A DNA stretch of 60,599 bases, counting the filler, from Sphacelaria rigidula (taxonomy: Eukaryota), in the NCBI GenBank assembly GCA_964200075.2. It is 4 parts of 4 records of this genome, joined end to end, with 100 filler letters (N's around TTAATTAATTAA, not from the genome) between each part and the next. Parts side by side here need not be neighbours in the genome. Positions count along the whole stretch, not along the records: positions 45,530 to 60,599 come from CAXNAA020001919.1; 3 more parts are not named here. One strand, written 5' to 3'. This document shows positions 3,735-60,599 of the stretch, in pieces. The translations under genes were made by a program, and so were the position numbers. The notes beneath the pieces are model-generated. The model was given only the letters and a program-made list of their open reading frames with translations. It was not told the origin of the DNA and did no database searches. The first letter of the stretch is position 1. Every line of letters begins with the position of its first letter.

Positions 3735-3960
3735 CAGGCGCGGTTGAATATCAGACTGTGGCCTAGAGAACCCAACCCACGAATGTCGGTTCAAAATGGA
3801 CGAGCATATCTAGCAATTAACGCCCATGTAGTACCGGATGGAACAATGAACGATGACATCCTAGTAGGACGTGATGGCCCAGGTCTATTCCCGGTCAGAG
3901 CGTATCGTGATGTAAACCGACGAGAGACAGTCATGACCTTGCAAGGAAACAATATTGACT
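3735..3960 (+). pseudogene. C-terminal half of a second retrotransposon aspartic protease
   Basis: RLNIRLW...AINAHVVPDGTMNDDILVGRDG matches RLSVQFF...AVWAFVVPDSTMAHVLLLGRDS of ORF 4685-5275(-). Confidence 0.55.
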
Positions 3961-10310: not shown

Positions 10311-13300
10311 AATCAAATTGCTATGTGTAGCTAAGACGCATACCTATCAGCCCTCGAAGTCGCGGCTGTGCATACTCTTGCCTCAAATAAAAATGTTGAC
10401 GAATAATAATGTTCATATATTGCAATTTCCACACGATAACGAGAACTACTTGGTGCAATTTTGAAGTTAAACGATAGCTATTAGCAATCATTACCTGTCT
10501 CTTGAGTTTCAGCTGGCTGCCATACGCGCAGAGCGAGTTGTCTGCGATCGCGTGTAGGTCGGCCATATGTGAAAATAACTTTTGGGCTTGTACAGATTTC
10601 GTCGCCTTTTTTCCCGGCCATCCGTCGATCGTTCATGTGCGGTATTAGATGGAACTGAACCGGACTTCGACGGAGGGGTAGCTTCGGATAAGCACTACAG
10701 CTTTGTATCACATCACTATAGTCGTCATTATTTTGCCCTGTCGACGTATTTTACTTCACCAAGTCGCTTTTGGGGGGTGTTGTAAAACGTGACACTAAAC
10801 TGATTGACCATATTATTTTGTCCAGGGTGTGCAACTTTCTCTGCCGTACCGTGCTGCTTCGTGGCGTATTTTTGTTCATCTCCCGTAATCTAGCGCGACA
10901 TGCACGACAATCCCGCACATCTGTAGAATATCAGCGTGGGATTCACAAGGTGATAAACAGGGTGACACGTGACCAACCCCTTGCGTCAGGTTCCTCGTGG
11001 CCACATGCTACTAGACGCTGGGAACACGAAGGCAGTACTGAGGCGGAGTTCAACTTCAACAACTGGGCGTAATGGAAAAATCTGAAACGCAGTCGCAACA
11101 TCAGTACAGTACAGTACCAGTCTTACGCCAAGAAAAAAAAAAGCAAGTCAACTGCCAACATTCCCGCATACGAAAATCATACGCACCTCATGTATCTTTG
11201 GACGGTTCAACAGGGTTTAGTACTGTATTTTTAGTACAAATCAAGAGTTATTATGCTTGTGGATTTCTCCGCCGTGTCTGTTCTATCAAGCCTGAAACTT
11301 GGCACAGAGGTAAACCACAACACAAACAGCATATTCCCGGAGCGGCGGCACGTTTTACGTGGTGCGCTAGACGCATGAAGCAAAATACGGATTTTGGACA
11401 ATGCCATCGATACGCCCTCAAAACGCAGTCCCCTCGGCCCAGACTGCGTGAGACGTCAGTGGATGCATATGTTGACACGCAGATACACCCACTTCCTGCT
11501 GGGTGGCTCCTGCCCCGGCAAACGAACACATTGCGCACACTCTAAATGATGTCATTCTACGCGGTACCCATCTTGGTATCGCCTGTCGAGGTGCTCACTT
11601 CAGGAGGCACGGCCGTGCAAGCGCTCTTAGAGCTTTTGCGTGCTGAAACCTCGACCACATGTTATGTGGACTACAAAAAACAACCTCATTGTGCTGAACC
11701 TGGGGTTGCGCTGTGTGTGCGTGCGTATTGGGGACAAAATATGTCGGATTATGTTCCGATTTGTTTTCAGCGTAGACGGAGTACAGTCAGCAGAGTTGAT
11801 AAAATAAGGACGAGCTCCCTCGGTGATGACGATCGCCCAGCGCACCCGACGAGTTCCATCGATACCTCGGTGTACATGACCAAATTTGTTGCCAGAATCT
11901 AATGTACATCCAGACTATTTCGAGCCTGCGCGCTGTCGTTTCAATCCAACCCACCCTACCTGCAGCAAACGCCAGCGACGACCCGCGCCTATTGCCAGAT
12001 CGCAGACCGGCAGTAGTCCTGTGAGAAATGGATCCATGCCACGGCAACATCCCTGTAGTGGTAACCGACACGCGGCCACAACCAGCGTTTCGACCACTAC
12101 CCAGTCGCGCCAGGGAATTTTGAACAAGCCTAAGCATGAAGATTAGCATACTATGCCCAATAAGTAACAGCTAGGGCTTGAACGCGAGGATCTTGCCGTG
12201 CACACCATCACCATATTATTGCAGCACCCAAATCCCTCGTTTTTACGGATGTGTGTTCCGCTTTGCAAACTGTCATGTTCCGTTGGTCCCACAGTACCAT
12301 ACCTTGCTGTAGTTTCAACGTTACTGTGGGAGAGATACATGAATAGTGTGCTGCATTACAATACACACAAGATGGTGAACATAGGTCATGATGGGTGTGG
12401 TCAGAAGAATCGGGGGTTGATGACCGGTTATTTTTCAATCAAGCACATACTATTAATAGCAGATCGAGTTCCAAACTTGGAGAAATCGAAAGAGGCGTTT
12501 TTGAATTCGAGAACATGCATTCCTAGCTTTCCAGAAAGACTGTGGTTCGCCAACCTAGGTGCATCATGTATGCATGTGGCTTCTCTAGAAATGAGACGAG
12601 AAGAGTCGCCGATGACCAGGGCACACGGGNNNNNNNNNNGTGGTTGTTGTTACGCTTGGTGTTTCCACCCCTTTGGCTGTTGCATTCATTAGAAGTCGCG
12701 GAAGGCCCGCCCCCCCCCCCCCCCCCCCCGCCCCCCCCCGCCATATCACAAATCCAGCAGCACCCTCTGGAGATAACGGAAGGTACACATACATACACAA
12801 ACGCACAAACAACGCGCGCAGGAGCTTTTCCTACGGCGAACACTAGCGAGTTTTCCACATTTCAGGCAACGCGAACATGAGCCTCGCCCCTCGCTCAGGA
12901 GATGGATCGTTCGATCCATTCAGGTGATCACATACCGCGCTGCGGCTACTTTCCACGACGCATACTATAGTACGGCCTCGGTTTGAGGGAATGAACAGTA
13001 TGACTACTGTATACCCGATCATGCGTGTTGAAAATTCGGCTTCCAACCTTTGTTCTCTCAAACTGAGTTTGACCATCATGCCGCAGAATATCGTTCAGAG
13101 GGTACATACAGCCCAGTATCTTTCGAGGGGCGGGATCTTCAGGCAAAATGAAGGTGTACCGGGACAGGATCTGCTGAATTAAATCACCAGGCGAGCCCAT
13201 ATCTCGAGCCAAACCTCCCACACACAGATGAGGGTAACCTGAAGTGAATTGGAAGACGCGTGACTGTGGCCGAGTGTTCAAACTCGGCACTGGCTCAAAA

Positions 13301-29530: not shown

Positions 29531-30072
29531 CGAGCTGGACCAGCAGTAAATCACGCATTCGCTTTCCACACCACAACTTCTCAGGTTTTCCAAATCAACT
29601 CGATTTGAGCATAATATCGCTGTGAAGTGCAGACCAACCTGGTAACACACGGCACCGCCGCTGAATGGAAAAAAATAATGAAAAAAATGTACTGCATAAC
29701 ATATAGCCTTAACGACAGACGAAAAAATATATAATCTGTCGGGATTCGAACTCATGACCTCCATGACCTCCATAATTGGAGTCTCTTGTATCACTTGAAT
29801 TAAACGGGAGCAGCCATGTCACACGAAAAGTGCGGCGCAAAGCCCAATTTGAGGGACTTTTGACCGAAACTTTACCAGAAGGTCCTTGACGCGAGTGCCC
29901 GTATGTGCTGGAGCGTTCTCGTCGTTTTTATCAATTTTCAAGGAAGTTATAGCATTTTCCCTCGTTTCGCTGAAACTTCAACTCGCTCTATTTTTTTATT
30001 TTTTTTTCCTCTACAGTACCAATAGGGTCGCGCGGGTTGATGATTAAAAGGCCGTGTCAAAATTTCAGCACC
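29531..30072 (+). mobile_element. Tc1/mariner-like MITE family A, copy 2 (right end interrupted)
   Basis: TA|CGAGCTGGACCAGC start, body colinear with copies 1 and 3. Homology stops at the TAA target of the next element. Confidence 0.8.
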
Positions 30073-30075
30073 TAA

Positions 30076-30212
30076 GACCCCCTTTTATGGCAAGCATGAA
30101 TCTTGATTTTTTCAAAATCGGGGGGAAAAAAAATCGGGGGACGCATTTTATGGACACGAATTTGGACCAAGTCGGGGCCAAAAAAATCGGGGGGTCACGA
30201 TCTCGGAAACGA
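30076..30212 (+). mobile_element. PIF/Harbinger-like MITE left end nested in family A copy
   Basis: TAA|GACCCCCTTTTATGGC, colinear with 25726-25865. Confidence 0.55.
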
Positions 30213-38885: not shown

Positions 38886-39389
38886 CTATGGGTATTTTCT
38901 TTGTTATGGGGGAGGCTACTGCGGCATCACTCCGCAGCAGTCAAGACAAGACGGAACACCCATTAGTCGGAAGGAATGCAGGAGACATCATATGGAGCCC
39001 CACGTACGAGGTCACATCGGACAGGGGCCACAGTACGACGGCTCTTGTCGACTTGTTGATTATTTCCACGTCGAGTTGTTATTTCGATCTTTGAGGGGCG
39101 CTTAACGCCCATGACCACGCCCAGCAGACTAACAAACCGCTGGTGAACCACACAGCATTTTCTCATCACCTACAGAGGGCTATCACCGCTGAACCTTGGT
39201 TACATGGTATTGACCCGCAGTTGCTTTTAGAACCGTCGCTGTGCTTCCCCTTTCCCTCTAGCGGATGCCACCGGTACACACTGCTCGCGGATTCTCTTTC
39301 ACTGACCACGACTTCCCCTTGTGTGCCGGAAAACACAAGAGTCGACGCGAGGAGCAACGGCCTACGAACCAAACTACAGAACAGGTCAC

Positions 39390-42300
39390 CTTGGCATCTT
39401 CACGGCGCCTCTTGTCGAACTCCCTCTCCCGCGCGACCCACTTGGCATCGAATTCCCGCTCCCGCGAGGACCACCTGGCCGCAAACTCTCTTTCCCTTTC
39501 CGTCCACTTGTCATCCATCTTGCTCCTTACTACCGATGCATCCTCATCCTCCTTCATCACCTCGGCCGCTGCGACCGCTGCTGCCGAAAACGCTTGCTCA
39601 CCCCGACGCGTTTCACCCCACCCGCCGCCGCCGCCGTCAAGATCTCCCCCGCACAGCGTACACCTACCGTGCGACGCTTTCAATTTGCGCTGCTCGTTTT
39701 GCGTCGTTCGCTCGTCGATCGATGTTATCTCCGTGAGTTTCCCTCCTTCCTCACCGGTACATGTTTTGCTGTTGTTCATGTCACCGGAAGAGATGTTCGA
39801 CTTCTGAGATTTCAACACTATTGCCGTCGAAGAGACTGTTGCTGCAGAAGACAGTCGTTGTGACGGTAGGCTCGTTGACGCTCGCACTGCCGCTGCCGTC
39901 GAATTCGATGATGCTGCGGGGAAATTTGAGGGACGACCCGTCGCCACAAACCCGGCACCTGTCGCCTTAAGCTCTCTCGGAGCTGTCGTCCGTCGTCCAT
40001 CCACCCCGGCACTCGACATATCCGGCGTCGCTGTGTTGCTAGTCGGCATAGCGATGGTGGTCGCCGCTGCCTTTGCTTCTACCCCTATCACGACCACCTC
40101 CGCATCCAGGCGTGCGTCCCTTTCCCCCGCTACGGCACCCGCCTGTAGTCTCCGATTCGCATCACCGGCCTGACATTCGTTACGCCCAGTGCGGGTCGCA
40201 CCGACGACATGTCCATTTTCACCTTCGTCGCCTTCGACTGCCGCTGCGCCATGAGCGATCGTCGCGGGGTCGATCAGGCCACTCTCGATCAAGCCTTTCT
40301 CGGTAACCGTCATGCAATCGGTGGTGGAGGCGGCAGGGAGTGGTGTTGGCTTGCCCCCTTTCGTGTCTTGCATTGGCACGGCAGGATCTCGGTGATTTCG
40401 TGAAAGATTGAGGCTCGTCTTGACGACAGGGTCAACTCCGTCGCTAGCGCTGGCGATAGCGTGGGCGTCCGCCACCGCGGCAACCGACCCGGCCGGGGTC
40501 ACGGTACTGCCATGACCGTCGGTAGATAGCCACGGCAACGACTGGGCTTCTCCCTGTTCGGGCATGCCGAGCCGCTGGGTGCTCTGACGGAACGCTTGGA
40601 CGGCTTGTGCCGCGGAGGACGCGTTAGACTTCCTCGCCGAACGGGCAACATAGGAAGAATTCGGCAAAGGAAGGGACAGGGACGACGATGAAAGCGACTC
40701 GTCTGCTGGTGTCTTATCGAGCCGAGGGGTGGTGAGCGGGACATGCGAAGAGCATTCTACTCGCGGAGGGTGCGACGGTGGGGGGGGGGCAGGTGAAGTC
40801 ACTCCCACCGCACTCGCACTACCGTCATGTGTTGTGCTCCTACTGAGGCTTGCAGCCAACGGGGCCCCCGTTCTTATGGGACTGGTTCGATTCGAAATAG
40901 CCGGCGTCGAAGCATCCGGTACCGGAGCTGTTTGTCGTGCTGATGCACACTCGACCTCCCTTCCATCGTACCCGATATGGTCATCGTCTTGAGATCTTCG
41001 CCATCGCAGCCGCGGTCCAGTTGAGTGCTCCAAATGAACCTGCGCAGATGACGGCAACAGCCCATCAGAGCGGACGGGTCCGCGGCCTGATCGTCGATCC
41101 CTGGTGATCGGGGACGGGAATGCGACGCTCGAAGACGCTTCCAACTCAGATAATAAAAGCGCAGGGTTTTTTGGTTTGTTCGATTCAGTTTGAGACAACG
41201 TCGCTGTTGTCGTCGGCGCTTGCTTCGAAGGTGGTGGTGACTGTGGTAGCTGGTGGGTGTTACGGCCGGAATTCACGTCCCGAGGCCCCCCAGTACAGGC
41301 GGCGGTCTGATGCCGATGACCGCCATTAAAATCCCCAGTCTCAACGACAGAAGAGTGTTGTTGAGGGGGGAACTGAACTCGTCGAGGATCGGCGCCGATG
41401 CTACTACTGCAAGCCCGCGTGCTACTGGCGTTAAGCTCTGCCCAGAGTGCAGCAATGTCGTCACCATCATTTGCCTGTGAAGCGACATCGATCACCTGCA
41501 CTTCGCCCGACGGCTTCGACTTCTCCTCCTCCCCAGCTACGCGAGGCGGCAGCAACGACGACGACGACATGTCCAACGAAAAATCCTTGCAACCGGGATC
41601 ACCTACTACGCTCAAAGATTCGCGACGTAGAATACCCGTGGAGGTACCACGGCGGCTACCCTCCGGTTGCCCGCGCTCCAGCCGGGCGACGTCGGAAGAC
41701 TCGTGTATTTTGTAGGTCCCGCCTACTTGCCGCGTGTCCTGGTGGCCCCTGTAATTGTCTCGGGGTCGGTCGGCCCCGCGAACGCCGTCTCTGCAGCTAC
41801 CGCCACTGCCGCCGTCGCTGTTTCTAAAGGCGTCCCCGCCGGCGGCACCTTTATATGTAGTCCTGCTCACTTGGGAGCCCGGTTGTGGTCGATGTGCTTG
41901 CGGCGGGTCGTGAGCTCGCGGCGGACAGCGTGCCTGCCCCCCAGCGCGGTCACGCTTATTGCTGGCATTCCCACGGTTGCTGTTGCTACTGTTTCCATTG
42001 CTGATCACGCTGTGCCTGGCTACTGGAGACATCGACGGTCGCATCTCCTTGTTACCATCGTCGCCTGCGGCGGCGCGGTGTACTGCATCGCTGCGCCCGA
42101 CCGTTAGTCGCCGGTGGACGGTTGCAGTACCGGCATTACCCCATTCGTCTAGGGCACCGCCACCTCCATCGCCATCATCACCACCACTAACATCGTCTTC
42201 CCCATCCGGAACACCGTTTACATGATCCAAGCATTCCGCGGCGGCGGCGGCAGCGCTAGAGTAGAAACTATTGTAGTAGTGTTTCGGGCGAGCGACGACC

Positions 42301-43055
42301 GCCGTCGCGGTTCTCAAACGGTGACCATCTTCTGCAGATTTCACTTCGACCGTTCGATCACCGCCGCGCCTAAATGAGGCTGTGGGGTGCTGGTTGCCAC
42401 GGCTTCCGTCATCCGTGTCCTCCGGGGTTGTCCGTATTCGTTCTGGTACCGTGAAACCCGCGCCGGGAGGCATACCGACACCAGCGGAGACAAAAAAACT
42501 GTCGAAATCAAAAGAATCTCGTGCACCGTCGCCTCCGGGATGATTCGGTCGCGGGCATAGAAAGCGGTCGCTCCCGACGGCGTTCCCTTGACCGATGTCG
42601 ACGTTTAGCCTGTCGACAGCGTGCTCTCCTCGTCGTTCCCCCGTTCCCCCTTCACCTCGCGCGCGTGTTCGCTTGCTGCGCCCCAGTCTGCCCTCATCGA
42701 CGACGCGCCTGGCCGCGACTTCGTTCCTATCATTGCTCGCCTTCTGCTGCCGCACAAGTATGCCATCCTTATCCACACACCCGCGCCTTGACCCCCCCAT
42801 GCTGCTTGTCTTTACCCGATCCTCCGCTTTTACAGGAACACCATCGAGCCTCAGCAACTTTGGCAGCGTCTGGAGCACGATTTCACGTGGGTTTGCGCGA
42901 CCAGCGCCACCGCAGTCCGCAGTCATGACGGGGTTCAGGCGAAGGTCTAGGTCGCGGAGGTTGGACAGCTGAGTCAGGCGGTTGACCTCCCGAAAACTGG
43001 AAAGCCGATTGGAGCGGAATATTCCCGTGACGAGACACGGCAGGTGTTCGATCCC
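39390..43055 (-). CDS. CEP72: CEP72/LRRC36-like protein, 3666-bp exon (LRR + LRRcap, disordered linker, coiled-coil start)
   Basis: Acceptor TTGTCAG|GGG at 43056/43055, in frame with ORF 39258-42926. Encodes GIEHLPCL...SNRLSSFREVNRLTQLSNLRDLDLRLNPV...REIVLQTLPKLLRLDGVPV. Donor AAG|GTGACC at 39390/39389. Confidence 0.85.
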
Positions 43056-43744
43056 CTGACAACGGGCGGAAACATCGGCGTTGAGATCCGAGAGGGGCGT
43101 AACCAGTGGAGGGGGGGGTCAAGGGGGGGAGGAGTTCATGGTCAATTGGGGGCGACTTCACGCGATGAACCAGGCTTGTAGACGCTACATCGGCTGTGTA
43201 CGATCGCACAGTGTTTGCCGTCCCCCCCCCCCCTGGTGGTGAAAGCGGTACCGTACATACTGGATCGGTTAGGGCGTAAGGCTCGAGGTAAGATTTGCAC
43301 CAGATTATTTTTTTAAGGAAGTATCTGATCTCCATCGCTGAGTACGTCAGGACGTCATTAGCGAAGAAAATTTAATAGCAACCGACGCGGCGCGGTAGTG
43401 CTGATCCGCAAAAGGTAGAGCAGGGGAGTGTCGCTGAATGCTCAAGATATTCTCACAGGAGCTCTGTCACCACAAATCTCAGGTTGATTCTGATGGAAGA
43501 AGCCGAAATCAATCACCCCCGTGGTGGTGAGTCTGTCTTGATCACCTCAGCTCGACATCCCGTGCTGTCTGTAAGGGGATTCGCCTGCTTCCCGAACAAC
43601 TTCACAGGGGTCCTTGGCGTGAGATTTAGTCTTTTTTACTCGGTTTTACGGCCACGCTTTGTGCGAGAAGGCGTAGGAATGTCACTTCTGCGATAGCTCG
43701 CCTGCAAAACCAGCCCAAAACCGTCCGTAAGAAAGTGGTCGTAC

Positions 43745-48237: not shown

Positions 48238-50751
48238 CTACAAGCAAGGGTATCTCTTCCCGTACCAAGAACCCACCTCGAAAACAGTAAAACCCTTTTC
48301 AGCTGAGAGACCCCAGGCGGTAGACGTCCCCGATCCCATCGCAGAAACAACGTAGCCCCACCCTGGTTCCCCTAGCGTACGCATGCTGTCTGCATGGAAG
48401 GTTTCCTCGTATCCAACTCTCTGTGCCTTAGCTACGATGGACGGAGACAACGTTTTGCTCCCGGAGCATACTGATTCCATGATGAACATGGGGCGGTGGC
48501 CGGTAAGCACGGCTCCCCAGTATCCACAAGCCACGCAACGAGCAAAGTAGCTCTCCCTAACCTTGTCCAACCTAGTTTCAACCGGAAGTTCTCTCCCGAT
48601 GAGAGAACGCCCCACCAAAACTTGCAGTAACCGGATCGTTAAAACCATCGACTCCAGGGCGGCAGTCACCCCGAGAGCAACGTTCACCGACGCGAAATTC
48701 CGGGAAGTCACCACTATGATGACTTCAATGATCAGCTCAGACAAGTATGCCACAAAGCACACAACGGCGACGTCCTCTCCCTTGACCCAGATCTTCAGTA
48801 CTGCTGCGATAACTAGGGCAACCGCCCCTAATACTCCACCAGCGACGTAATTGTCGATAACCGTCAAAGCAGCCACGGCACCTAATACTGCGGCAGACGC
48901 TTCCCCAGCTAGTAGACGAACCGCTCCATCGGGCACGTGCTCTTGCCGGCTCAAAAGCCAGTGAACAGGATCCACAAAAGCAACCAACGGAGCATCTCCC
49001 GAACACCACCATATCCCGACCCAAAGCTGGGCCCATATTTCTCCGCAAACAGCCGCCGCCAAGAACACATGATACACATCAGCCTCCCAGTTCACCAAAA
49101 ACCATACCGCCGCAGCTGTATTGACCAGCCCGAGCAATCCGCTGTGTTCGGGCTTGCTGACGAAAGGCTGCTGCCTCGGAGGAATGGTGACGCGTACGAC
49201 ACGGCAGCTGCTGGAGTAAGGTCGTCCTGCTGACCTCTCGCCTCGGGTATCAAATGACAGGCCCACAACCTTGACGTCACCCTCTTCTACATAAGCCCTG
49301 TCCTTGCCAGCTCCAGGGCGTATCTTGTCCGCGAAAAATCTGGGCACGCTCCGGCCAGTCCGGCCAGTAGTAGAAGCTACGATAGGGGCGAGTGCAGGCT
49401 CTGTAACGTACCATCTGCATATTGATGAAAAGCAATCGTAAATTGTAACTCCAAAACTGCAGACTGTACTGAGGCCAAAATCTGGGTTGCGCCGGTCCCG
49501 AGGTAGGTGTGCCAGTGCGTCGAGGCATAACCACACCATTGCTGAGTACTGGTTCTGAACATGCGTGCCACGGTCCACATCATTTTTCACTTCCTTATCG
49601 TCAACGAGTCTGAACAGACACTCGAACATTTGAACGAGACCAGCCCTATCCTCGAACCTACCCATGGCATCCTCCACTCGTAGAACTGATGCTACACACG
49701 ACCTGATCGATTGCCAATTCTCATTCGAAATATTGAGCGATTTATTTTCATCGGCGACATCGAAAATATCGCGGGAGGACTCGAAGATGAGAATGGAAAT
49801 GTACGGGGGAATGAAGGCATAGTACAAACAAGCGAATACCAGAAAGAAAGTCCCCACACGAGCGCGAGTTGAGTCCGAATCCCATTTATTAACGCCTTGG
49901 TCTGTCCATTTGAGCAAACACACAGATACCACGTTTAAACCCAACGATAAGAGCGTCATACCGCTAAAAAACAAGGCAGGCTTGTATTTGGCCGCGGCTT
50001 TCCTGAATTTTATCAAGAGAGCAGTGACAATGTATGCTGGTAGGCCAATCCAGCAAAACGACACCCACCATACCCAGTCTGGGGCATCTAGCCAGTCTCG
50101 GGCGGAGATCCAAAGTGCAGGGCGTGAAGCCGTCAAAGGTATTGCGAAATACATCCAACCGGCGAGCGCCGCGTACGTGAAAAAGTACATCAGGAAGCAA
50201 GCAGCCGCTCTGGTACTACTACTGATGGTCGAGGGAACGAACGCACCGCCAAATACGAACAACAGTTCCTCTTCGGAGCTGGCCACGGTCGTCATAGGAC
50301 GCTGCTTAGATCTCCGCCTGTGGTGAACGCTGACTGGCGTGGCCAGAATGCGGCTGGCAACCTCTGCACGGGGTCGATTGTGCGTCATGATCATCTCACG
50401 TTCCTCCACGGTCTCACCGGGGCCGCAGACCCCCGGGATGCCGCCCACCATGAGCAGGTCAACCACGTCTTCGGATGTAGGCTTTCCCTTGACGACGCGC
50501 TCCCAGATCGTGTCGAGTCCTCCGATAATGTCCGATATTGATGTAGCGAACATTCTCAGTGAGGAACCGATAGATGATGCTGCTGCAATGCCGGCTTCAG
50601 CTGCGATGCCGGCGCCTGAAGCGACACCATCTTCTAAATCGATGTCTGCTTCTGATGCGATGCCGGTTTCTGGTGTGTCGATGAAGGCTTCTGCTACGAT
50701 GTCGGCCTCTGATGCGGACCCGTCTTCTGGGGGACTTGCTGAATCAGCCAT
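48238..50751 (-). CDS. Intronless multi-pass membrane protein of unknown family (837 aa)
   Basis: 2514-bp uninterrupted ATG-to-TAG ORF. Acidic N-terminal repeats, two hydrophobic clusters (~aa 180-325 and ~540-715) separated by a soluble domain. Confidence 0.8.
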   Translation of the reverse strand: MADSASPPEDGSASEADIVAEAFIDTPETGIASEADIDLEDGVASGAGIAAEAGIAAASSIGSSLRMFATSISDIIGGLDTIWERVVKGKPTSEDVVDLLMVGGIPGVCGPGETVEEREMIMTHNRPRAEVASRILATPVSVHHRRRSKQRPMTTVASSEEELLFVFGGAFVPSTISSSTRAAACFLMYFFTYAALAGWMYFAIPLTASRPALWISARDWLDAPDWVWWVSFCWIGLPAYIVTALLIKFRKAAAKYKPALFFSGMTLLSLGLNVVSVCLLKWTDQGVNKWDSDSTRARVGTFFLVFACLYYAFIPPYISILIFESSRDIFDVADENKSLNISNENWQSIRSCVASVLRVEDAMGRFEDRAGLVQMFECLFRLVDDKEVKNDVDRGTHVQNQYSAMVWLCLDALAHLPRDRRNPDFGLSTVCSFGVTIYDCFSSICRWYVTEPALAPIVASTTGRTGRSVPRFFADKIRPGAGKDRAYVEEGDVKVVGLSFDTRGERSAGRPYSSSCRVVRVTIPPRQQPFVSKPEHSGLLGLVNTAAAVWFLVNWEADVYHVFLAAAVCGEIWAQLWVGIWWCSGDAPLVAFVDPVHWLLSRQEHVPDGAVRLLAGEASAAVLGAVAALTVIDNYVAGGVLGAVALVIAAVLKIWVKGEDVAVVCFVAYLSELIIEVIIVVTSRNFASVNVALGVTAALESMVLTIRLLQVLVGRSLIGRELPVETRLDKVRESYFARCVACGYWGAVLTGHRPMFIMESVCSGSKTLSPSIVAKAQRVGYEETFHADSMRTLGEPGWGYVVSAMGSGTSTAWGLSAEKGFTVFEVGSWYGKRYPCL

Positions 50752-51267
50752 TCGGCTACTCGGCCCCTCTTAGCGTTGACGTTTGACGTATACCTGTCAT
50801 GTCCAAGCCCAGCCGGTTGTAGAAAAAAGGCATGAAAGAGAGGTCGATTCAGTAACCGCAGTTGATGGTATTCTTGAAAGCAACGCAGTACAGCAAACTA
50901 CGCCGACGGATTGACCGATAGTAAGCGGGTCAACCAAACCGCTTTCCGACCTATTTCAATGGCAGCTCATCTGTGCCCAGTTTTCAATCGTACTCAAATC
51001 ATTGGGATGGTCCGAAAAGGGACCGGGAATACCTATACATGGTATAATTGTGGTCACCGCGCGCTTCACTGACAAGAGTGGGTGGAGTTATAGTGGGAAG
51101 GGGAGGGGGGGTTGTGTCTATCGTTAGCTCCGAGCCTTACCCCCCTGCGGAGGAGAAAAAGACGACACGCTGCCTGACCAGCAGCCGGCCCCGTACGCTT
51201 TTGCGGTCAGCGCACAAAGCAGGTGTAGCAAAGCGGGGCCTCGGTGTGTGACCCTGTAGAGAAAGCC

Positions 51268-51625
51268 ACGTTACATAATCAGATAATGCGACGACGTTCA
51301 AACATAGGACGGGCCAAAAATCATCAGCGTCACGTACATGGTAACGTCACGCGTTACATGACACGTTACAACGCCTAAAACGCTGGTAAATGGACCACGA
51401 CATGCGCAGAATGAAAAGTTACATCTGAACTTTACACGTGTCAATGAAACGTTACATTAGACGTTATACGTGATATTGAAACGTTTCATATTACGTCACA
51501 TGCAACGAAACGTAATGCTAAATCTTTTGAACGTGCCGAACGAAACGTGAACGTAACGTCAATTTTTCAAATGAATTGTTAACGTAACGTTGGTTTTTGT
51601 CACGTGTCAAACGAAACGTAAAGTG
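51268..51625. repeat. Second, rearranged copy of the ACGT-rich element
   Basis: GGTAACGTCACGCGTTACATGACACGTTACAA and ACACGTGTCAATGAAACGTTA are shared with 25350-25590, followed by sequence resembling ~24970-25080. Confidence 0.8.
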
Positions 51626-52729
51626 ACACACGCGACCCAAAGGAAGATCCCGGTATAACTCAGCACCCTCGCACATAATACAGTACCGTACAGTCAGCAG
51701 GAAGTTTTTGTTTGAATTTGACGGTTACAGAACAAGGGAGCACTTGCCCGCACGGTCAAAGTTATGGTCAATTAGTACAGTGCGCTACAGTACAGTACAG
51801 TACCGCTACTGACAGTCAGTCGTGAGTATACACGAGCATGTGTTTTAATAAATAGCCGTTTCATTCAGACCCGCGGCCGAAGGGTAAATCCGAAGGCAGC
51901 GAAACGTCGTCGGTTTTGGGCTGCAAAGACAGCGAACATTCGTCATTTTTTAGCTGCTCACGTACGGGTGGGCCGTGGGCGGTAAAGGCATCGCTCTTTG
52001 TGTGCGTACCGTCCAAAATACAGGAAAAGGAACATTCACTCAAGGTACTTCCCTATTTTCGAGAGGCGGGGGTGGGCTGGGTACCGGCCTGAAATTGATG
52101 AAGTCCCTTGAATGTATTGGATTTGATAGATTCATCACGCAGTAATCAATCTGCTATGAACCCAGCTATGGTCACAAGACGGCCGTAATGACCCGGATAG
52201 AAAACACGACCCAGAGGAAAGAGAATTCAAACCTTTGAATACAGAGAAGGATCGGGAAGAAACAAACGGCAAATGAAAGGCAAATTCAAAACCAGGAGAA
52301 AAAATTGAAAATATATAAAGGGCAGCGGAGACACCCAAAATAACACTCGATTAAATATACAAGCCAAGTAGGACGAGGCAGTATATGAAGTGAGACCGAT
52401 AGAGCCATACATGAAAAAAAATCCCAGGGTGTGCGTCGTCACGCCCCCCCCCCCCCCCCCCCCCCCCACCCCTCACCNNNNNNNNNNCCGACAAGACCAA
52501 AAAAAAAAAAAAACCCCCGGGGGGGGGCCGCCCCCCCCCCCCCCCCCCCCCCCGCAAGGCTATCCTAGGGAGTGTTGAGGTGTGTAATGCGCATTTTGCC
52601 GTATGCGTCAAAAGATTTCATCACGGACGAACTACAAAAGCATCTCCCATAGGTCCACACTTCATTGCAGCAAGCTGCCCCACGATCGGCAGCGTGATCC
52701 TTGATGCGTCCAAGCATCAAGTATGATGA

Positions 52730-55379: not shown

Positions 55380-57440
55380 CTACACGGGAAACTTTCTTTT
55401 TTCCTCATGAACAGAGTCACTGGCCCGTTTTCTCTTTCTCGTGTTATGGGACAGCGAGTCTGGTAAACGCGCGCTATTAAGTTCTTTCTTGATTCTGTAC
55501 GCGTCTATGAGATGTTGACATCGGGGAACCTCATCCGCACTATACTCTAGGTCAGCTGATGGACCGTAGCCTTTGAGTCTGAGGCGGTATTTATAGCTGA
55601 GGTCGCTTTTCCGCCCTAGGCCTCGTTTATGTTCCACCACCTTGTCAACGATGTAGCATTTGATTTTCGGTTATGCTACATCTGGGCGGTCAACCTCTGG
55701 AAGAGACAGTCTTTTCCCCATGTAAAAGTCGGCAAGTCGAAAAAAATCGGGCGCCGTTGCTTTCACCTGTGGGTAGTACTTTTTCCAGTGAGCCAAGTGC
55801 CCCGACGTTTGTTTCGCGTCGTTGCCCAACTTTACTTTGTATACTAGTGGCGATACTTTGGAAAAGATTACTTCATTCGCACGCGTGGTTGCCTAACTGT
55901 CGTGTTTGACTGAACTGCGCATTGCCAGCATAACGTGTAGATTTGAGTGTATCCGCTTTGAAACTGCGTTGCTTTAAGGTCTGAACGGATTCGTGCGGGT
56001 ATTTTCAGTTTGTAGCAGCGTCTGTAGCTGGTAGATCACTCGATTCTTCAACTCCTTGCCTTGATCAGAGTCAAATTTTCCGGAATGATGAATGTTGTTG
56101 AAACTCTGTAAATTAGCACCTGTCCCGACGTAATGACCGGCGTTTCTAGAATCGGGATAAAAAGTGCATAGCGTCGTCTTATGATCCATCACGGAGATGG
56201 TGTAGTTACAAGCTACTCCAGCTGAGGATTTCGTTCCGTACACACACTTGTCGATGACTCCTTGTATCCTTGGGTTGGCCATGTAGGGCGGTCTGTCGAC
56301 TGGTTGTGTAACCGGTTGGAGTGGACATTTAGCTTCATTTATTGTTCAGCATCCTAACTCCTGCCGTAAAAACAAAAAGATTGTCCGGTATTTAGTACAC
56401 AGATCGAGGGCTTGGTCTCCATGCTCCCGAGAAAAATGTGCGGTTTGTAGAGGCATTTTGAACGCCTTTTCCAACTCTTGAGCTTTTTGTTTTTCGGCGG
56501 CTGCGCTGCTTGTGTTTATCGTCTTCACCGTTCGGACCTCTGATGCAAGGATAATGTACCCTAACAGAGTGCTTCGCTCAGTACGGGCGTGCCTGCTAGA
56601 CGGATTGGTACGTGGACCGTGGCTGCCTTATTCACCGTTGACCATGTACAAATTGCGTGCCACAGTCAGACGTTTGAAACTGATGGTACGTCCAACGGTT
56701 GAATGTCCTGTTCGTTGACTATGCGTGGCTCAACTAAAGCACTGATTGTCACTTCAAGAGATTCATCCGAGTCGGCATGTTGGGTCATGTTGCGCCGCAG
56801 TTTCTCCGCTGACAACGAAACATGCGCCATGTCCCCTGCGCGTAGAGTTGCTTGGCCCGTTCCGTCTCTTGTGTGTAGCTTTGATACTTACATTAGAATT
56901 TCGGAACGATCATGTCTGAGCTTCTCAGGCTGAAATTAAAATGTCTCCAAATGCTCCCATCAGTGAAATATCGATCAGCATGTAGTCGGGGCCCAGATCT
57001 CGTCAAACAAACGCTTCAACGGGCAGGGTTTTTTTTCCCCAACGTGAGGTCGAAACGAATGAAACTGACTATTGTTGATGGGTGAGTTGTTCGCGCTCTT
57101 AAGTTTCAAAGATCTACTTGGAACTGGTTTGATGTCCGCCGTGCTCAGAGTGCGGTGCGAACGAATGAACTTCAGGCTGATGATAAAGAGGTCTGAAATG
57201 GATCTTTCGTCAGTGCCTGCACAGCACTATCGTTCCGAAGCCGGATGTATCGTTTCAGGTCTCTTCGGCTACCGCGCTAACGACAACATGTGGAAAATGG
57301 AATGCTTCGAGGTGTTGACAGTTACGGTGTTTTGCACTGATATTAAATGACGATTGAGCTATGGAAGCTGCTTGCGGAACACTCTCCAAGTACGAAGACT
57401 GGCTACGCTGCACCATTTTTCGACTTGGGTTGCTCACTTT
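55380..57440 (-). mobile_element. Heavily deleted chromovirus-type Ty3/gypsy element
   Basis: Protease-like LPVEAFV..LGPDYMLID (~57000), RT entry PVDRPPYMANPRIQGVIDKCV (~56280) and chromodomain YIVDKVVEH...YKYRLRLKGYGPSADLEY (55500-55655). Confidence 0.75.
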
Positions 57441-57475
57441 GAGTTTCTGCTTGATTCTATCATGCACTTTTGCTA

Positions 57476-58066
57476 CGAGCTGGGCCAGCTTAAAAGCGGC
57501 TAAAACTTACTCACACCACAGTTTCCCCCGTTTCCCGAATGAACCCGATGTAAGAATATCACTGAGGTGTAGACCAACCTGGTAACACGCGGCACCACCG
57601 CTGAACGGAGAAAAAAAAAAAAAAGTGTACTGCATAGTGTATGACCTCAACGACGGACGAAAAAAAAGAGAAACTGTCGGGATTCCGACTCATGACCTCC
57701 ATAATTGGAGTCTCCCATCACTTGATTTATAGGGGTACAGCAGCGTCACGGAAAATGTTGAACGCACGGCCCAATTCGACGACTCTCGAGCTGAAATTTC
57801 AGGTAGAACACTTGCACCCAAGGAACTGGTACTTCACGTGAGCAGCTGCAGATTCTCTTTTTTTTCCTGGATTTATGACATTATCTTGTTTTTGCTGGAA
57901 TTTTAAATGCCCTTAACTCTTTTTTTCTTCTCTTCTTTGTTGCTGACGTGATCTTCTGCATTTCGATCATAACAAGCTGCTGTCAAAATTTCAGCGTCCA
58001 ACCCCCAATATCACGACGTGCGTCGCCCGAGCGAGATTCACATCTACTCTTGGCTGGCCCAGCTCG
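57476..58066 (+). mobile_element. Tc1/mariner-like MITE family A, copy 3 (intact ends)
   Basis: TA|CGAGCTGGGCCAGC ... GCTGGCCCAGCTCG|TA: perfect 14-bp TIR and TA TSD. Confidence 0.9.
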
Positions 58067-58220
58067 TACCTCTTTGTGAGATTTCGCCTAGGATCCCACT
58101 GAAGGGATTACTTTATGGTAAGCAAATCACCCTGCTCGGTGTTGAATGATAGTTGTTCCAGTTGAAGATGCAGATCTATCCAAGTGCTACATCTAAATAG
58201 AGTGCGACCGAATAACCTTT

Positions 58221-59894
58221 CCACACCCTGGACAATAAAATATGTGTTCAATATATATTAGTCGATCATATTGGAATTTTGCGATATATTTCCGGCGCAA
58301 TATATATATTGGTACCCTTGGACTGCACACGTACGGCGCGCCCAATTTATATTGATGTCGTGGGACTGTATACATATTGCCCGCCCAATATATGTTGGTA
58401 CCATGGGGTTGAACATATATTGTCCCATCAATATATATTGGGGCAGTGTGGGCGACGGCATGTTGCACGACCAATATATATTAGGGTCGCATTGGTGACA
58501 ACATGTTGACGGGTCAACATATATTGGGTCTGCGTGCGTGCCAATGTATTGGCTGGTCAATATATATATCGGATATTTTAAGTATGGTGTACACCCTAAG
58601 AAAGATCCAGACACGGTGGATGCCGGAGCCCGTGGAGATCGGGAAAAGCTTCGAAGGAAGCCGCAGAAGTTCGCGTGCATTGCTTCGAAGAGTTTTCGTT
58701 TGATACATTTATATATGTATATACTAGTCAGAAAACATGGTAGCAGAAGAGACGACCCGGTATGTATGCCCTCTGATACCTATCTGGCCACCGGTACGGG
58801 GCCACCCGTCCCCTTCACAGCATGTAATATATCTTGACTGAACATCACGATGACAGAAAACGCGGGTCTATACGCGTCTTTTGATACCCCTGTGGTCACC
58901 GGTGCTGTGTTGCCTTGGTCAAAAAAAATATGTTCCATTATGATACCAATACTTTGAATTGGAGACAGCGCATATATTGTCCTTTCAATATATATTGTGT
59001 TAAGATGTCCTCGGAGACATTGAAGCAACAACATACATGTTTCATGATCGTGAAGTGATGCATGGCAATGTACATTGGACATGCATTTACTCCGGGAACA
59101 AAATATTCAATTTATATTGTGCATGCCGGCCGTGCATGTATTGAAGTGCCAATATATTTGGAGCCGGAGCGATGCGGAACAAATTGTTACCATAATATAT
59201 ATTGAACGCAAACCATGCAAAAGTATTGTTATTCCAATATATATTGCGCACGCTCATCGCGTAGCTAGTATGCAGACAATTTGTATATATATATTCAACA
59301 CGCTCGCGGAGGAATATATTGAGCGTTTTCGGCATGTGGTGATACATCTTTCAATGGAGCCCGCGAACACAGAACTGCTCATGATACTAATTCCAATATA
59401 TTTTCCTATCTACACGTTGAAAATCAATATATATATATATATATATTGCTACACCAATATGCATTGTGACCGTCCGTTCCTTCCTGACTTGTCCGCCCCA
59501 TATATATTGGACGCATTGACGCGCGACATATTGGGGCGGCAACACATGTTGGCGCGCTCCGGGTGTTGAGTATATTGAATAACCAATATATATATATATA
59601 TTGACCTCGTGTGGCAGCCAATATATTATTCGACGAATATATATTAGTGCCTTACCGTTCCAATCGGTTACTTGGCCAATATATATATATATATTGAGGT
59701 GGCGCGTGTTGTGATATACTGTTCGGTCGATATATGTTGTATGTCGCAAGACTTGACATATTGAGAGCACAATATATATTGACTCTCTGTCGTGTCATCA
59801 TATTGCTCACCCAATATATATTGACCACCCGACGCGTCGACATGTTGAGCTGGCAATATTGTAAACATTACATGTCGTATTGTCTATGGTGTGG
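58221..59894. repeat. IR-bounded element with regularly interspaced short palindromic repeat arrays (42-43-bp period)
   Basis: Outer IR CCACACCCTGGACAATA / TATTGTCTATGGTGTGG (15/17). Units are CAATATATATTG-N17/18-CATATTG-N6 with non-repeating spacers, in blocks 58249-58570 and 58971-59861. Confidence 0.85.
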
Positions 59895-59998
59895 ATGTTT
59901 TTGAGGGAGTATGGGCAGTTCCGATTAGCAATCAAAAGCCACTGCTTATAAAATTGTCGTTTATTCTGGCGGCAGGTTGAATATGTGTCACCGTGGGA

Positions 59999-60324
59999 TG
60001 TAACGTGACCGATCCCTTGGGGTACCGCGAAAAATGCAACATGATACTCGTATGAGTCTCAACAAGTTGAGCTTTGAGACGCTAGCAGGTTGCTAGTACT
60101 GCAGCGTCTAAATGCTATTGAGGGACTCCCCATTTCCACTGGCCTCAAGGTCTCAGTTGTCAGCCTTCACAGCACCTTATCTTTATTCGGAGTAAACACC
60201 TGCAGGCCCGTATCATTAGGCCTGGGCTACACAGCAAGGGTCATCATCCACAGGATGTCCTTGTCCCCTGGTCTTCATCCAGGATCCACTATATACTCAA
60301 CCGTGACGGCATGATTTCGCCACA
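59999..60324 (-). mobile_element. 3' LTR of a chromovirus-type gypsy element
   Basis: Minus strand TGTGGCG...CGTTACA, preceded by a short G-run (PPT-like). TATATA (~60291) and AATAAA (~60185) lie in the expected order. Confidence 0.7.
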
Positions 60325-60403
60325 GCACCCCCAAAGCGCGTTGGACGAGAATCGATCAACAAGCTTGACACTCAGAAAACTCACGCCAAAACGATTGAGC
60401 AAG

Positions 60404-60599
60404 TCACAACTGAATCCCAAACTCACGCGCAATGCGAGCAGCAATGGAACGAGTCACTCGCACCTTACGCAATTCCTTCTTGAGAAATTCCGGATCTGCC
60501 TCAAACATACTTTTAAAAGGCTCCCACATACGCTCCTCGACTTCAAAGCCTACCCAGTCGACCAATACGGTCAACGAACGATCCTCTGCCTCTGCCACG
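60404..60599 (-). mobile_element. Integrase C-terminal chromodomain of a chromovirus (truncated by window end)
   Basis: VLVDWVGFEVEERMWEPFKSMFEADPEFL is a chromodomain signature, with the stop ~80 bp before the LTR. Confidence 0.85.

What the first reader, a model, noticed from the sequence alone, without database searches (positions are those of the whole stretch)
58249..58570. Regularly interspaced palindromic array with unique spacers, exact 43-bp period (block 1)
The palindrome CAATATATATTG (or 1-2 nt variants) starts at 58343, 58386, 58429, 58472, 58515 and 58558 (exactly 43 bp apart), preceded by copies at 58249 and 58298. Each unit is 12-mer + ~18 unique nt + CATATTG-like 7-mer + 6 unique nt (e.g. 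GGGCAGTGTGGGCGACGG/CACGAC, GGGTCGCATTGGTGACAA/ACGGGT, GGTCTGCGTGCGTGCCAA/GCTGGT). Conserved motifs and lengths with unrelated GC-richer spacers are not how ordinary satellites decay. The dual-repeat/dual-spacer layout recalls CRISPR/TIGR-like guide arrays, and ATATTG-N6-CAATAT can form a hairpin in each unit. The conservative reading is a helically phased (4 turns) protein-binding lattice. No associated protein gene is visible.
Basis: partly seen in the sequence, partly recalled or inferred. Interest (0 to 1): 0.85.

Follow-up and report, generated by a model that had tools for sequence, protein, structure and literature searches.

The report
Phased binding-site array inside a transposon
The regularly spaced palindromes are real, but they form the body of a high-copy, non-coding cut-and-paste transposon of an alga and are most likely its protein-docking sites, not a CRISPR-like guide array.

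Summary
The box CAATATATATTG (up to 1 mismatch) occurs 13 times in the window, all within 58249-59823, against 0.08 expected. In block 1 the period is exactly 43 bp.

The array is not free-standing. Blocks 1 and 2 lie in one 1672-bp element, 58222-59893, with 26-nt terminal inverted repeats.

Contigs of four public runs show this element is highly repeated, with sharp drops in depth at both ends. Flanks differ between copies, and versions of the flank exist without the element. Other copies align at about 87% identity across several units, spacers included. So the "unique spacers" are fixed parts of a repeat family, and the block-1 spacers are decayed copies of each other.

Best reading: a decayed copy of a non-autonomous TIR DNA transposon. 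Its 16 same-orientation composite sites (half-site, N6, 12-mer) are a phased lattice of protein-binding sites, most likely for the mobilising transposase.

I found no transposase, RNA family, coding capacity or strong hairpins. The CRISPR/TIGR reading is rejected. Interest is low to moderate.

The parts
58222..59893 (+). Whole element: a 1672-bp non-autonomous TIR DNA transposon copy, 41.5% G+C
   Evidence: Summed contig depth in run X1 is 110 at 58080-58199, then 12,798-47,953 in the 14 bins from 58200 to 59879, then 748 at 59880-59999. In X2, 77 contigs have unlike flanks before 58222 (agreement 0.41). Joints 58174->59894 and 58209->59898 are flank copies without the element. Contigs with 0 or 1 differences bridge both junctions (X4 record 27 at 58030-58268; X2 record 13 at 59821-60107).
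58222..58245 (+). Left terminal inverted repeat, starting CACACCCTGGACAATA
   Evidence: Inverted pair I5, arms 58220-58245 and 59870-59895, 26 nt, 81% complementary. The 16-mer matches at 58222 with 0 mismatches and at 59878-59893(-) with 2.
59870..59893 (-). Right terminal inverted repeat
   Evidence: The loose-end consensus behind 59859 in X2, X3 and X4 (agreement 0.65-0.68) reads on to a terminus that matches the left end better than this copy does.
58249..58570 (+). Block 1 of the array: 8 boxes, the last 6 exactly 43 bp apart, and 6 composite sites (half-site, N6, 12-mer)
58571..58968 (.). Central non-periodic segment of the element. It is also high-copy and has no coding or RNA-family match.
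   Evidence: Depth 14,214-39,746 in X1. No Pfam family for ORFs 58499-58837(+), 58258-58779(-) or 58780-59106(-). No Rfam match here.
58969..59866 (+). Block 2 of the array: the same unit in the same orientation, 10 composite sites, 42/43-bp spacing with two (AT)n expansions (51 bp) and a degenerate stretch at 59279-59455
58214..58221 (.). Octamer left of the element: extra relative to element-less flank copies. A possible but unproven target-site duplication partner of 59894-59901.
   Evidence: Both element-less joints lack the element plus 8 further bases (tables 5 and 5c, my arithmetic). The two octamers match at only 4 of 8 positions.
59894..59901 (.). Octamer right of the element (see the previous row)
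10809..10831 (-). A third terminus of the same TIR type (21 of 23 identical to the left end), with no box array beside it
   Evidence: 1 mismatch in 16; BLAST 21/23, E 0.007; neighbouring sequence read by eye

Best explanation
The array is the body of one decayed copy (58222-59893) of a high-copy, non-coding DNA transposon with terminal inverted repeats, in a eukaryote whose runs are labelled as an alga.

The repeating unit is best described as a 24-nt composite site of three half-sites, ATATTG-N6-CAATAT-ATATTG, followed by about 18 free bases. That places one site every 42-43 bp, about four helical turns. There are 16 such sites, all in one orientation.

I infer that the sites dock a sequence-specific, probably dimeric or oligomeric protein. 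The most likely candidate is the transposase, or a DNA-binding accessory protein, of the unseen autonomous partner. Many phased sites would load several protomers, helping end recognition and synapsis and letting the non-autonomous element compete for transposase. The spacers are free to drift.

Shown: mobile-element status, the ends, high copy number, spacers shared between copies, and selective conservation of the boxes.
Inferred: that a protein binds, which protein it is, and what the phasing does.
For: Mobile element:
- Depth steps of 60- to 300-fold fall exactly at the inverted repeats. Many contigs have unlike flanks at 58222. Two kinds of element-less flank copy exist. Junction-bridging contigs are identical or nearly identical to the window.
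- The TIR is 26 nt and 81% complementary.

Spacers shared between copies:
- A 207-nt contig lies on 58357-58563 with 28 differences and no gaps. A 176-nt contig lies on 58391-58566 with 26 differences. A 188-nt stretch lies on 59080-59267 with 28 differences (table 8).
- Unrelated spacers would give about 40% mismatch.

Boxes kept, spacers not:
- Mean pairwise identity is 0.753 for the 12-mer and 0.547 for the 7-mer, against 0.29 (N18) and 0.273 (N6). Composition alone predicts 0.257.
- These figures come from 15 units of 42-43 nt that I picked out of 31 rows laid out.

Other copies have better boxes:
- 11 of the 15 majority differences listed inside the element fall in the two array blocks.
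- Five of them (59112, 59158, 59160, 59487, 59488) restore three boxes to consensus. None of the listed differences damages a box.

Site geometry:
- The composite site occurs 16 times in + orientation, 2 times in - orientation (both overlapping the + ones), and 0 times elsewhere in 58.9 kb.
- Positions 12-23 of the TIR are box-like: 8 of 12 in the window's left end by my count.

No other function visible:
- No coding capacity and no RNA family.

Precedent:
- THAP-domain sites in the tandem repeats of Galileo TIRs (PMC3688188, abstract read).
- BED-domain subterminal repeats of Hermes (PMC10368747, passages read).
Against: - No transposase gene was found in the window. 29 ORFs were scanned against Pfam. 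The only hit was a sub-threshold Chromo match in a neighbouring retroelement. The superfamily is therefore unknown.
- The third terminus of the same TIR type, at 10809-10831, has no array beside it. The array may not be needed for mobilisation.
- Both blocks are in direct orientation, not mirror-symmetric about the element.
- A target-site duplication is not shown: the flanking octamers match at 4 of 8.
- All between-copy evidence comes from Logan contigs of 4 runs, from at most 3 samples and 2 studies. One may be the source sample.
- The read laying tables are truncated: 41 of 386 differences and 15 of 293 joints were shown.
- Summed depth is not a copy number, by the tool's own warning.
- No binding or expression data exist.
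Confidence: 0.6

Rival explanations
1. The element is a transposon, but the array is a functionless internal minisatellite, as in tandem-repeat-containing MITEs. On this reading the boxes persist for mechanical reasons: (AT)n slippage, palindrome-driven replication slippage or gene conversion. No protein binding is involved.
For: The box core is CA(AT)4TG. It expands to (AT)5, (AT)8 and (AT)10 in some units, so slippage does act on it. Other copies differ by unit-sized gains and losses, for example joints skipping 86, 130 and 169 bases and one stepping back 43. The clam MITE DTC84 has an ordered array of repeat variants, each with a palindrome near the unit junction that is proposed as a hotspot for length change (PMC3879986, abstract read).
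Against: The 7-mer YATRTTG and the flanking C/G of the 12-mer are not microsatellite, yet they are conserved (information 1.1-1.6 bits at TTG). Spacers in block 2 have drifted to chance-level identity while the boxes stay at 75%. That is hard to obtain without selection in the active lineage. Spacing is held at 42-43 bp.
Confidence: 0.2
2. The lattice binds a host factor rather than the transposase, for example TBP on the TATATA cores or a homeodomain-like factor on CAAT/ATTG half-sites. It would then act as a transposon-spread regulatory, chromatin-positioning or origin-like module.
For: Each box holds a TATATAT core and CAAT/ATTG half-sites, which follows directly from the sequence. The resemblance to TBP and homeodomain sites is recalled, not tested. 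A preceding C (CCAAT) appears in at least 60% of the 15 units.
Against: No box lies outside the element in the other 58.9 kb of the window, so nothing shows host use of the motif. The TIR contains a box-like 12-mer, which ties the motif to the element's own ends. No expression or chromatin data exist.
Confidence: 0.12
3. It is a non-autonomous Helentron (a HINE or DINE-1-like element): subterminal inverted repeats, central tandem repeats and insertion into T-rich DNA, moved by rolling-circle transposition.
For: HINEs carry central tandem repeats that can fill about half the element, and they insert at TT with T-strings at the boundaries (PMC4067079, passages read). Here T-runs lie just outside both ends (CCTTTC before, GATGTTTTT after), and no clear TSD is seen.
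Against: In HINEs the 3' inverted repeat lies about 38-60 bp inside the 3' end, with a palindrome beyond it (PMC4067079). Here depth falls to background right at both inverted repeats (bins 58080-58199 and 59880-59999), and the element-less joints resume at 59894 and 59898. Both repeats are therefore terminal. The element-less copies lack 8 extra bases.
Confidence: 0.03
4. It is a CRISPR/TIGR-like or small-RNA guide array: conserved repeats form hairpins and the variable spacers act as guides.
For: A dual-box, dual-spacer layout and an inverted repeat ATATTG-N6-CAATAT occur in most units. Block 1 as RNA folds somewhat better than shuffles (z -2.36, 3 of 200 shuffles as good), but through pairing between units.
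Against: Spacers are fixed in a high-copy repeat family, and block-1 spacers are homologous to one another. The repeats are only 55-75% alike. Unit hairpins are weak and 3 of 7 do not form. None of 78 spacer 13-mers matches elsewhere in the window. There is no Rfam family and no associated gene. The genome is eukaryotic and transposon-rich. The pattern is absent from viral contigs.
Confidence: 0.02
5. The array is the tandem-repeat-bearing 3' untranslated region or LTR of the neighbouring chromodomain retroelement, whose ORF ends at 60404 on the minus strand.
For: The ORF 60404-60598(-) has a weak Chromo match (E 0.0047, 17.3 bits, below the 25.1 cutoff). The array lies about 500 bp downstream of its stop. 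Tandem repeats in 3' regions of plant LTR retrotransposons are known; this is recalled, not read.
Against: A low-depth gap at 59880-59999 (748 against 47,953 and 130,442 on either side in X1) separates the two repeats. The array element has its own inverted-repeat ends, and its flank exists without it.
Confidence: 0.02

Closest known systems
Galileo and other Foldback-like transposons (P superfamily), with transposase THAP-domain sites in the tandem repeats of their long TIRs
   Same: A DNA transposon in which a short protein-recognition motif recurs in internal tandem repeats. The multiple sites are proposed to give binding specificity and a higher-order synaptic complex (PMC3688188, abstract; PMC4079207, passages).
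   Different: In Galileo and Foldback elements the repeat arrays sit in two inverted arms. Here both blocks have the same orientation. The unit here is 42-43 bp with spacers drifted to chance level. No THAP or other transposase is known for this element. The TSD is unresolved.
Tandem-repeat-containing MITEs (DTC84 of Donax trunculus, the pearl family)
   Same: A high-copy non-coding element with an internal array. The diverged unit variants keep a fixed order between copies, a palindrome occurs in each unit, and unit number varies (PMC3879986, abstract; compare).
   Different: DTC84 has up to five core repeats. Here there are at least 16 composite sites over about 1.2 kb, and only the boxes are conserved. 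This element has 24-26-nt TIRs and is 1.67 kb long, too long to call a MITE.
Subterminal repeats of hAT (Hermes BED-domain sites) and of En/Spm-CACTA elements (TnpA 12-mers)
   Same: Short motifs repeated well inside the ends that bind the element's own protein. Hermes has 17 and 14 AAG(T/C) motifs at its two ends, arranged asymmetrically (PMC10368747, passages). The En/Spm comparison is recalled. This element's ends begin with CAC, as CACTA-type ends do (recalled).
   Different: Those motifs are irregularly spaced, occur in both orientations and are concentrated near the tips. Here the spacing is fixed and the array fills about 70% of the element. The hAT end consensus and the 3-bp CACTA TSD are not seen.
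CRISPR and TIGR guide arrays
   Same: Only the visual layout of conserved boxes alternating with dissimilar spacers of fixed length.
   Different: The host is eukaryotic, the repeats are degenerate, and the spacers are fixed across a repeat family and partly homologous to each other. There is no associated nuclease gene and no strong repeat hairpin.

Membership tests
Non-autonomous TIR (class II) DNA transposon | Terminal inverted repeats at the exact ends | tested here: met
   26-nt arms, 81% complementary. The 16-mer occurs at both ends. The depth steps and loose ends coincide with them.
Non-autonomous TIR (class II) DNA transposon | Many dispersed copies with unrelated flanks | tested here: met
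   13,107 contigs of X1 were laid on the 3.6-kb stretch, which also holds two other repeats. 67-88 X1 contigs carry each of the listed majority variants in block 1. In X2, 77 contigs have loose flanks at 58222 with agreement of only 0.41.
Non-autonomous TIR (class II) DNA transposon | Empty (element-less) version of the insertion site | tested here: met
   Joint 58174->59894 appears in X1, X2 and X3. Joint 58209->59898 is shown for X3 in table 5c. These are diverged paralogues of the flank, not a proven allele.
Non-autonomous TIR (class II) DNA transposon | Target-site duplication | tested here: inconclusive
   Both element-less copies lack the element plus 8 bases, but the two flanking octamers agree at only 4 of 8 positions.
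Non-autonomous TIR (class II) DNA transposon | No transposase ORF inside; an autonomous partner with the same ends elsewhere | tested here: inconclusive
   There is no Pfam family in 5 internal ORFs. The partner could not be sought because no genome is held. A third terminus at 10809-10831 has no recognisable partner end.
Foldback-like element | Repeat arrays forming two long inverted arms | tested here: not met
   16 composite sites are in + orientation across both blocks.
Helentron-derived HINE / DINE-1-like | 3' inverted repeat 38-60 bp inside the end, followed by a palindrome; no TSD | tested here: not met
   Depth and joints place both inverted repeats at the ends. The criteria are taken from PMC4067079.
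CRISPR/TIGR-like guide array | Near-identical repeats with spacers that differ between loci or strains | tested here: not met
   Repeats are 55-75% alike. Spacers are shared by other copies at about 87%.
CRISPR/TIGR-like guide array | Adjacent effector gene (Cas or Tas) | tested here: not met
   There is no Pfam family in the ORFs of the element or in 24 other ORFs of the window, apart from a weak Chromo match.
CRISPR/TIGR-like guide array | Transcription and processing into unit-length RNAs | not testable with these tools
   No listed run holding the stretch is on record as RNA. This says nothing either way.
Satellite DNA | Long homogeneous head-to-tail arrays | tested here: not met
   Tandem Repeats Finder reports only (AT)n tracts here. 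Units share only their boxes. The array is bounded by TIRs.

The most novel reading that the evidence does not exclude
The element carries a purpose-built, helically phased docking lattice: at least 16 tri-half-site operators on one face of the DNA, kept by selection while the spacers randomised. The lattice would assemble a filament-like oligomer of a still unknown transposase or captured host factor. This would be an architecture of end recognition not described for any characterised eukaryotic transposon superfamily, and a ready seed for protein-bound satellite or centromere-like arrays.
Probability: 0.12. Interest if true: 0.6.

Novelty: new member of a known kind. Interest (0 to 1): 0.3.

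Why it matters
It shows that a striking CRISPR-like layout in a eukaryotic genome can be the internal binding-site array of a transposon. It also gives a simple test for this: repeat depth, inverted-repeat ends and spacers shared between copies.

The element itself is a clean natural example of selection acting on short boxes while 18-nt and 6-nt spacers drift to randomness at a fixed 42-43-bp phase. If the partner transposase is found, the 24-nt composite site offers a ready system for studying multi-site end recognition in a poorly studied algal lineage.

Tried and rejected
- **Own genome:** none is held. I could not count copies, build a family alignment or look for the autonomous partner.
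- **Earlier findings of the scan:** nothing by place, sequence or words.
- **Viral contigs:** 0 matches for the unit pattern, the box pair or the terminus pattern.
- **Metagenome contigs:** one match, L001. When read, it is a different thing: CAATAT-type motifs packed about 10 bp apart beside GC-rich DNA, with no 43-bp period.
- **Prokaryote genome contigs:** 4 loci, each with a single box pair and no array. I did not read them.
- **Sequencing runs:** no RNA holder is listed, so nothing can be said on expression.
- **Rfam:** only three miRNA-model hits at E 0.18-0.82, far below their gathering scores.
- **Pfam:** nothing on internal ORFs. The two ORFs of about 170 aa across the arrays are explained by the boxes being stop-free in all six frames, which I checked by reading the box.
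- **Fourier and autocorrelation of A/T content:** only weak lag 42-44 signals (about 0.1). The spectrum was not clean because (AT)n expansions shift the phase. I relied on box spacing instead.
- **Bacterial promoter/terminator scan:** irrelevant to a eukaryote.
- **ESM Atlas on the 837-aa ORF**, to place the organism: no usable hit. The lineage stays 'alga' by run label only.
- **Paper searches:** the 12-mer gave 0 papers. The terminus 12-mers gave 12 papers, all apparently unrelated biomedical papers judging from titles (listing only).
- **Retroelement-UTR and Helentron readings:** both rejected on the depth gap and the terminal position of the inverted repeats.
- **Phase continuity across the centre:** 58558 to 58986 is 428 bp, about 10 units, but I saw no vestigial boxes in phase (by eye). 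No claim is made.
Full report
**1. The observation**

The 12-mer CAATATATATTG, allowing one mismatch, occurs 13 times in the 60.6-kb window. All 13 lie between 58249 and 59823. A dinucleotide-preserving shuffle expects 0.08, and none of 100 shuffles reaches 13.

Laid out on the box starts, block 1 reads 58249, 58298, 58343, 58386, 58429, 58472, 58515, 58558. The last five intervals are exactly 43 bp. Each full unit is a 12-mer, then 18 nt, then YATRTTG, then 6 nt.

With up to two mismatches there are 27 boxes in the element. Of the 26 consecutive spacings, 12 are 42 or 43 bp. Random placement gives a mean of 0.42 and a maximum of 4 in 2000 trials. The coordinates and the period are correct and far beyond chance.

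**2. The feature is larger and more regular than described**

The same unit continues as block 2 from 58969 to about 59866. It keeps the 42/43-bp spacing, has two 51-bp units where (AT)4 has grown to (AT)8, and has a degenerate stretch at 59279-59455.

The half-box, N6 and the first half of the 12-mer form a palindrome themselves. The unit is therefore best read as a 24-nt composite of three half-sites, ATATTG-N6-CAATAT-ATATTG, followed by about 18 free bases.

Allowing one mismatch in the half-site and two in the 12-mer, this composite occurs 16 times in + orientation: 6 in block 1 and 10 in block 2. It occurs twice in the mirrored form, both overlapping + sites, and never in the other 58.9 kb. 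Both blocks therefore point the same way.

**3. The spacers**

I picked 15 well-formed 42-43-nt units out of the 31 rows. On these, mean pairwise identity is:
- 0.753 in the 12-mer;
- 0.547 in the 7-mer;
- 0.29 in N18;
- 0.273 in N6.

Spacer composition (58% G+C) predicts 0.257.

Block 1 is an exception. The variable columns of its five 43-bp units are 43.3% identical, against a shuffled null of 26.8% (sd 2.8%), and 0 of 5000 shuffles reach the observed value. These spacers are decayed duplicates of one ancestor, not independent acquisitions. None of 78 spacer 13-mers recurs elsewhere in the window.

**4. The array sits in a mobile element**

No genome is held for this window. I therefore looked for public runs that hold the stretch and laid the Logan contigs of four of them on 57000-60599. 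The four runs come from at most three samples and two studies. They are labelled with a coded organism and 'algae metagenome'.

- **Depth.** Summed word depth in X1 is 110 at 58080-58199. It is 12,798-47,953 in every one of the 14 bins from 58200 to 59879, and 748 at 59880-59999. The other three runs show the same steps. The tool warns that this is not a copy number, but single contigs of unique sequence have depth of only about 17-65.
- **Flanks.** In X2, 77 contigs stop matching just before 58222, with unlike continuations (agreement 0.41).
- **Right end.** Contigs that lose the alignment behind 59859 read on, in consensus, to a terminus like the left end (agreement 0.65-0.68). The break is therefore a small indel in the window copy, not the end of the element.
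- **Element-less flank.** One contig in each of X1, X2 and X3 joins 58174 to 59894. Another joins 58209 to 59898. These are copies of the flank without the element.
- **Not an assembly artefact.** Contigs with 0 and 1 differences bridge the left junction (58030-58268, X4) and the right junction (59821-60107, X2).
- **Spacers are shared.** Other copies align through several units, for example 207 nt on 58357-58563 with 28 differences and no gap. That is about 87% identity. Because 56% of those columns are spacer, this is only possible if the copies share the spacers in the same order.

**5. The ends**

The arms 58220-58245 and 59870-59895 are 26 nt and 81% complementary. The 16-mer at 58222 recurs at 59878-59893 on the minus strand with two mismatches. 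The element is thus 58222-59893, 1672 bp, 41.5% G+C.

A third terminus of the same type lies at 10809-10831 on the minus strand: 21 of 23 identical, BLAST E 0.007. Its neighbouring sequence has no box array, and no partner end is recognisable in the window.

By my arithmetic, both element-less flank copies lack the element plus 8 further bases. That would fit an 8-bp target-site duplication. However, the two flanking octamers (58214-58221 and 59894-59901) agree at only 4 of 8 positions. I leave the duplication, and with it the superfamily, unresolved.

The ends begin with CAC as in CACTA-type and Transib-type elements (recalled). A 2-5-bp duplication is not visible either.

**6. What the element does not contain**

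- Five internal ORFs, including the two of about 170 aa that run through the arrays, have no Pfam family at E up to 0.1. Reading the box in all frames shows it is stop-free in all six, which explains the long ORFs.
- Rfam gives only three miRNA-model hits at E 0.18-0.82, far below their gathering scores.
- The per-unit hairpins are weak. As DNA, seven 31-nt windows fold at -1.7 to -4.6 kcal/mol. Only four adopt the ATATTG-N6-CAATAT hairpin, and three of the seven are no better than typical shuffles.
- Block 1 as RNA folds at z -2.36, through pairing between neighbouring units rather than unit hairpins.

**7. Why the boxes look selected**

The copies share an array whose spacers had already diverged. 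So the array aged within the active lineage while the boxes and their spacing were kept.

The listed positions where nearly all other copies differ from the window point the same way. Of the 15 listed inside the element, 11 fall in the two array blocks. Five of those turn three damaged boxes back into consensus: 59112; 59158 with 59160; and 59487 with 59488. None of the listed differences damages a box. Only 41 of 386 differences were shown, so this is a sample.

Positions 12-23 of the TIR are themselves box-like (8 of 12 in the left end). This ties the motif to the ends.

**8. Mechanism**

I commit to this reading: the array is a phased lattice of docking sites for a sequence-specific protein, most likely the transposase or an accessory DNA-binding protein of the unseen autonomous partner. 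Sites recur every four helical turns, on one face of the DNA. This is inferred from 42-43 bp and about 10.5 bp per turn. Several protomers could then load cooperatively, giving specificity to a short AT-rich motif and helping a non-coding element compete for the enzyme. Confidence is about 0.9 that it is a non-autonomous TIR transposon, about 0.5-0.6 for the binding-site function, and 0.6 for the whole statement.

Rivals:
- A functionless internal minisatellite kept by slippage. It is supported by the (AT)n expansions and the unit-sized length variants. It is weakened by conservation of the non-microsatellite 7-mer and of the spacing.
- A host-factor lattice.
- A Helentron-derived element. Rejected because both inverted repeats are terminal by depth and joints, whereas HINEs have the 3' repeat 38-60 bp inside (PMC4067079, passages).
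- A guide array, rejected on the evidence in points 3, 4 and 6.
- The 3' region of the neighbouring chromodomain retroelement. Rejected by the low-depth gap at 59880-59999 and the element's own ends.

**9. Comparison with known systems**

- **Galileo.** The closest functional analogue. Its transposase THAP domain binds sites in the tandem repeats of the long TIRs, and multiple sites were proposed to supply specificity (PMC3688188, abstract; also cited in PMC4079207, passages). Those arrays are in inverted arms; here they are direct.
- **Tandem-repeat-containing MITEs such as DTC84.** These show ordered repeat variants fixed between copies and a palindrome per unit (PMC3879986, abstract). They have few units, and conservation is not confined to boxes.
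- **Hermes.** It has 17 and 14 short BED-domain motifs at its ends, irregular and asymmetric (PMC10368747, passages).

I file the element as a new family of a known kind, a non-autonomous DNA transposon with internal binding-site repeats. Its superfamily is unknown.

**10. Searches elsewhere**

- The unit pattern, the box pair and the terminus pattern are absent from viral contigs.
- The metagenome scan found one unrelated locus.
- Prokaryote genomes hold only four single box pairs.
- The box string is in no paper of the library.
- The terminus strings occur in 12 papers that are unrelated by title (listing only).
- No earlier finding of the scan bears on this one.
- Supplementary files were not consulted.

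**11. Verdict**

This is a real, non-random and elegant structure, but its explanation is ordinary: transposon-internal binding sites in one decayed copy of a high-copy family. Interest is 0.3.

The boldest reading the evidence leaves open is an undescribed architecture of multi-site end recognition, or a captured host-factor lattice that could seed protein-bound satellites. I give that probability about 0.12.

Noticed in passing
window 57474-58068; also 9417-9853 and 29623-30080: A short interspersed repeat of about 450-600 bp with an internal A-run occurs three times in the window (families D7, D9-D11). It is very high-copy in the runs, with sharp ends at 57474/57563 and 58068. ARAGORN finds no tRNA in it.
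   Followed up: partly
window 60404-60598 (-), repeat from about 60090 to the window end: The C-terminal end of an ORF with a weak chromodomain match (E 0.0047, below Pfam's cutoff). It lies in the most highly repeated part of the stretch, with summed depth up to 676,329 in X1. It is probably the 3' end of a chromodomain-bearing retrotransposon running off the window.
   Followed up: partly
window 10809-10831 (-): A terminus 21 of 23 identical to the left end of the array element, but with unrelated internal sequence and no visible partner end. It may be a second family using the same ends, or a truncated copy.
   Followed up: partly
window 4685-5782 (-) and 3537-4094 (+): By eye, the translations contain retroviral-protease-like motifs (LLDSGS... 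and LLGRD/LVGRD), with one in-frame stop between 5353 and 5354. Pfam gave no family for 4685-5353 or 3537-4094. These are likely decayed retroelement remnants.
   Followed up: no
window 31891-31957, 12706-12739, 52444-52553, 11-38, 34919-34948: Unusually long homopolymer C or G runs of up to 67 nt are scattered through the window.
   Followed up: no
window 58760-58800 and 58875-58910: By eye, the non-periodic centre of the element holds two diverged copies, about 110 bp apart, of a motif of the form TGATACC...TGG.CACCGGT. This suggests an old internal duplication.
   Followed up: no
window 25401-25592 and 51324-51515: A 192-nt repeat at 86% identity, each copy containing a 32-bp tandem repeat of 2.5 units. 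This is another interspersed family.
   Followed up: no
L001 1160-1300 (minus strand): A metagenome contig with a dense cluster of CAATAT/ATATTG-type palindromes about 10 bp apart, next to GC-rich DNA that looks coding. The motif is similar but the architecture is different and there is no 43-bp period.
   Followed up: no
window 39258-43118 (-) and 48238-50769 (-): Two very long ORFs, 1286 and 843 aa stop to stop, have no Pfam family. The 837-aa one looks membrane-rich and is held letter for letter in the ESM Atlas, with a poor model and no relatives found.
   Followed up: partly
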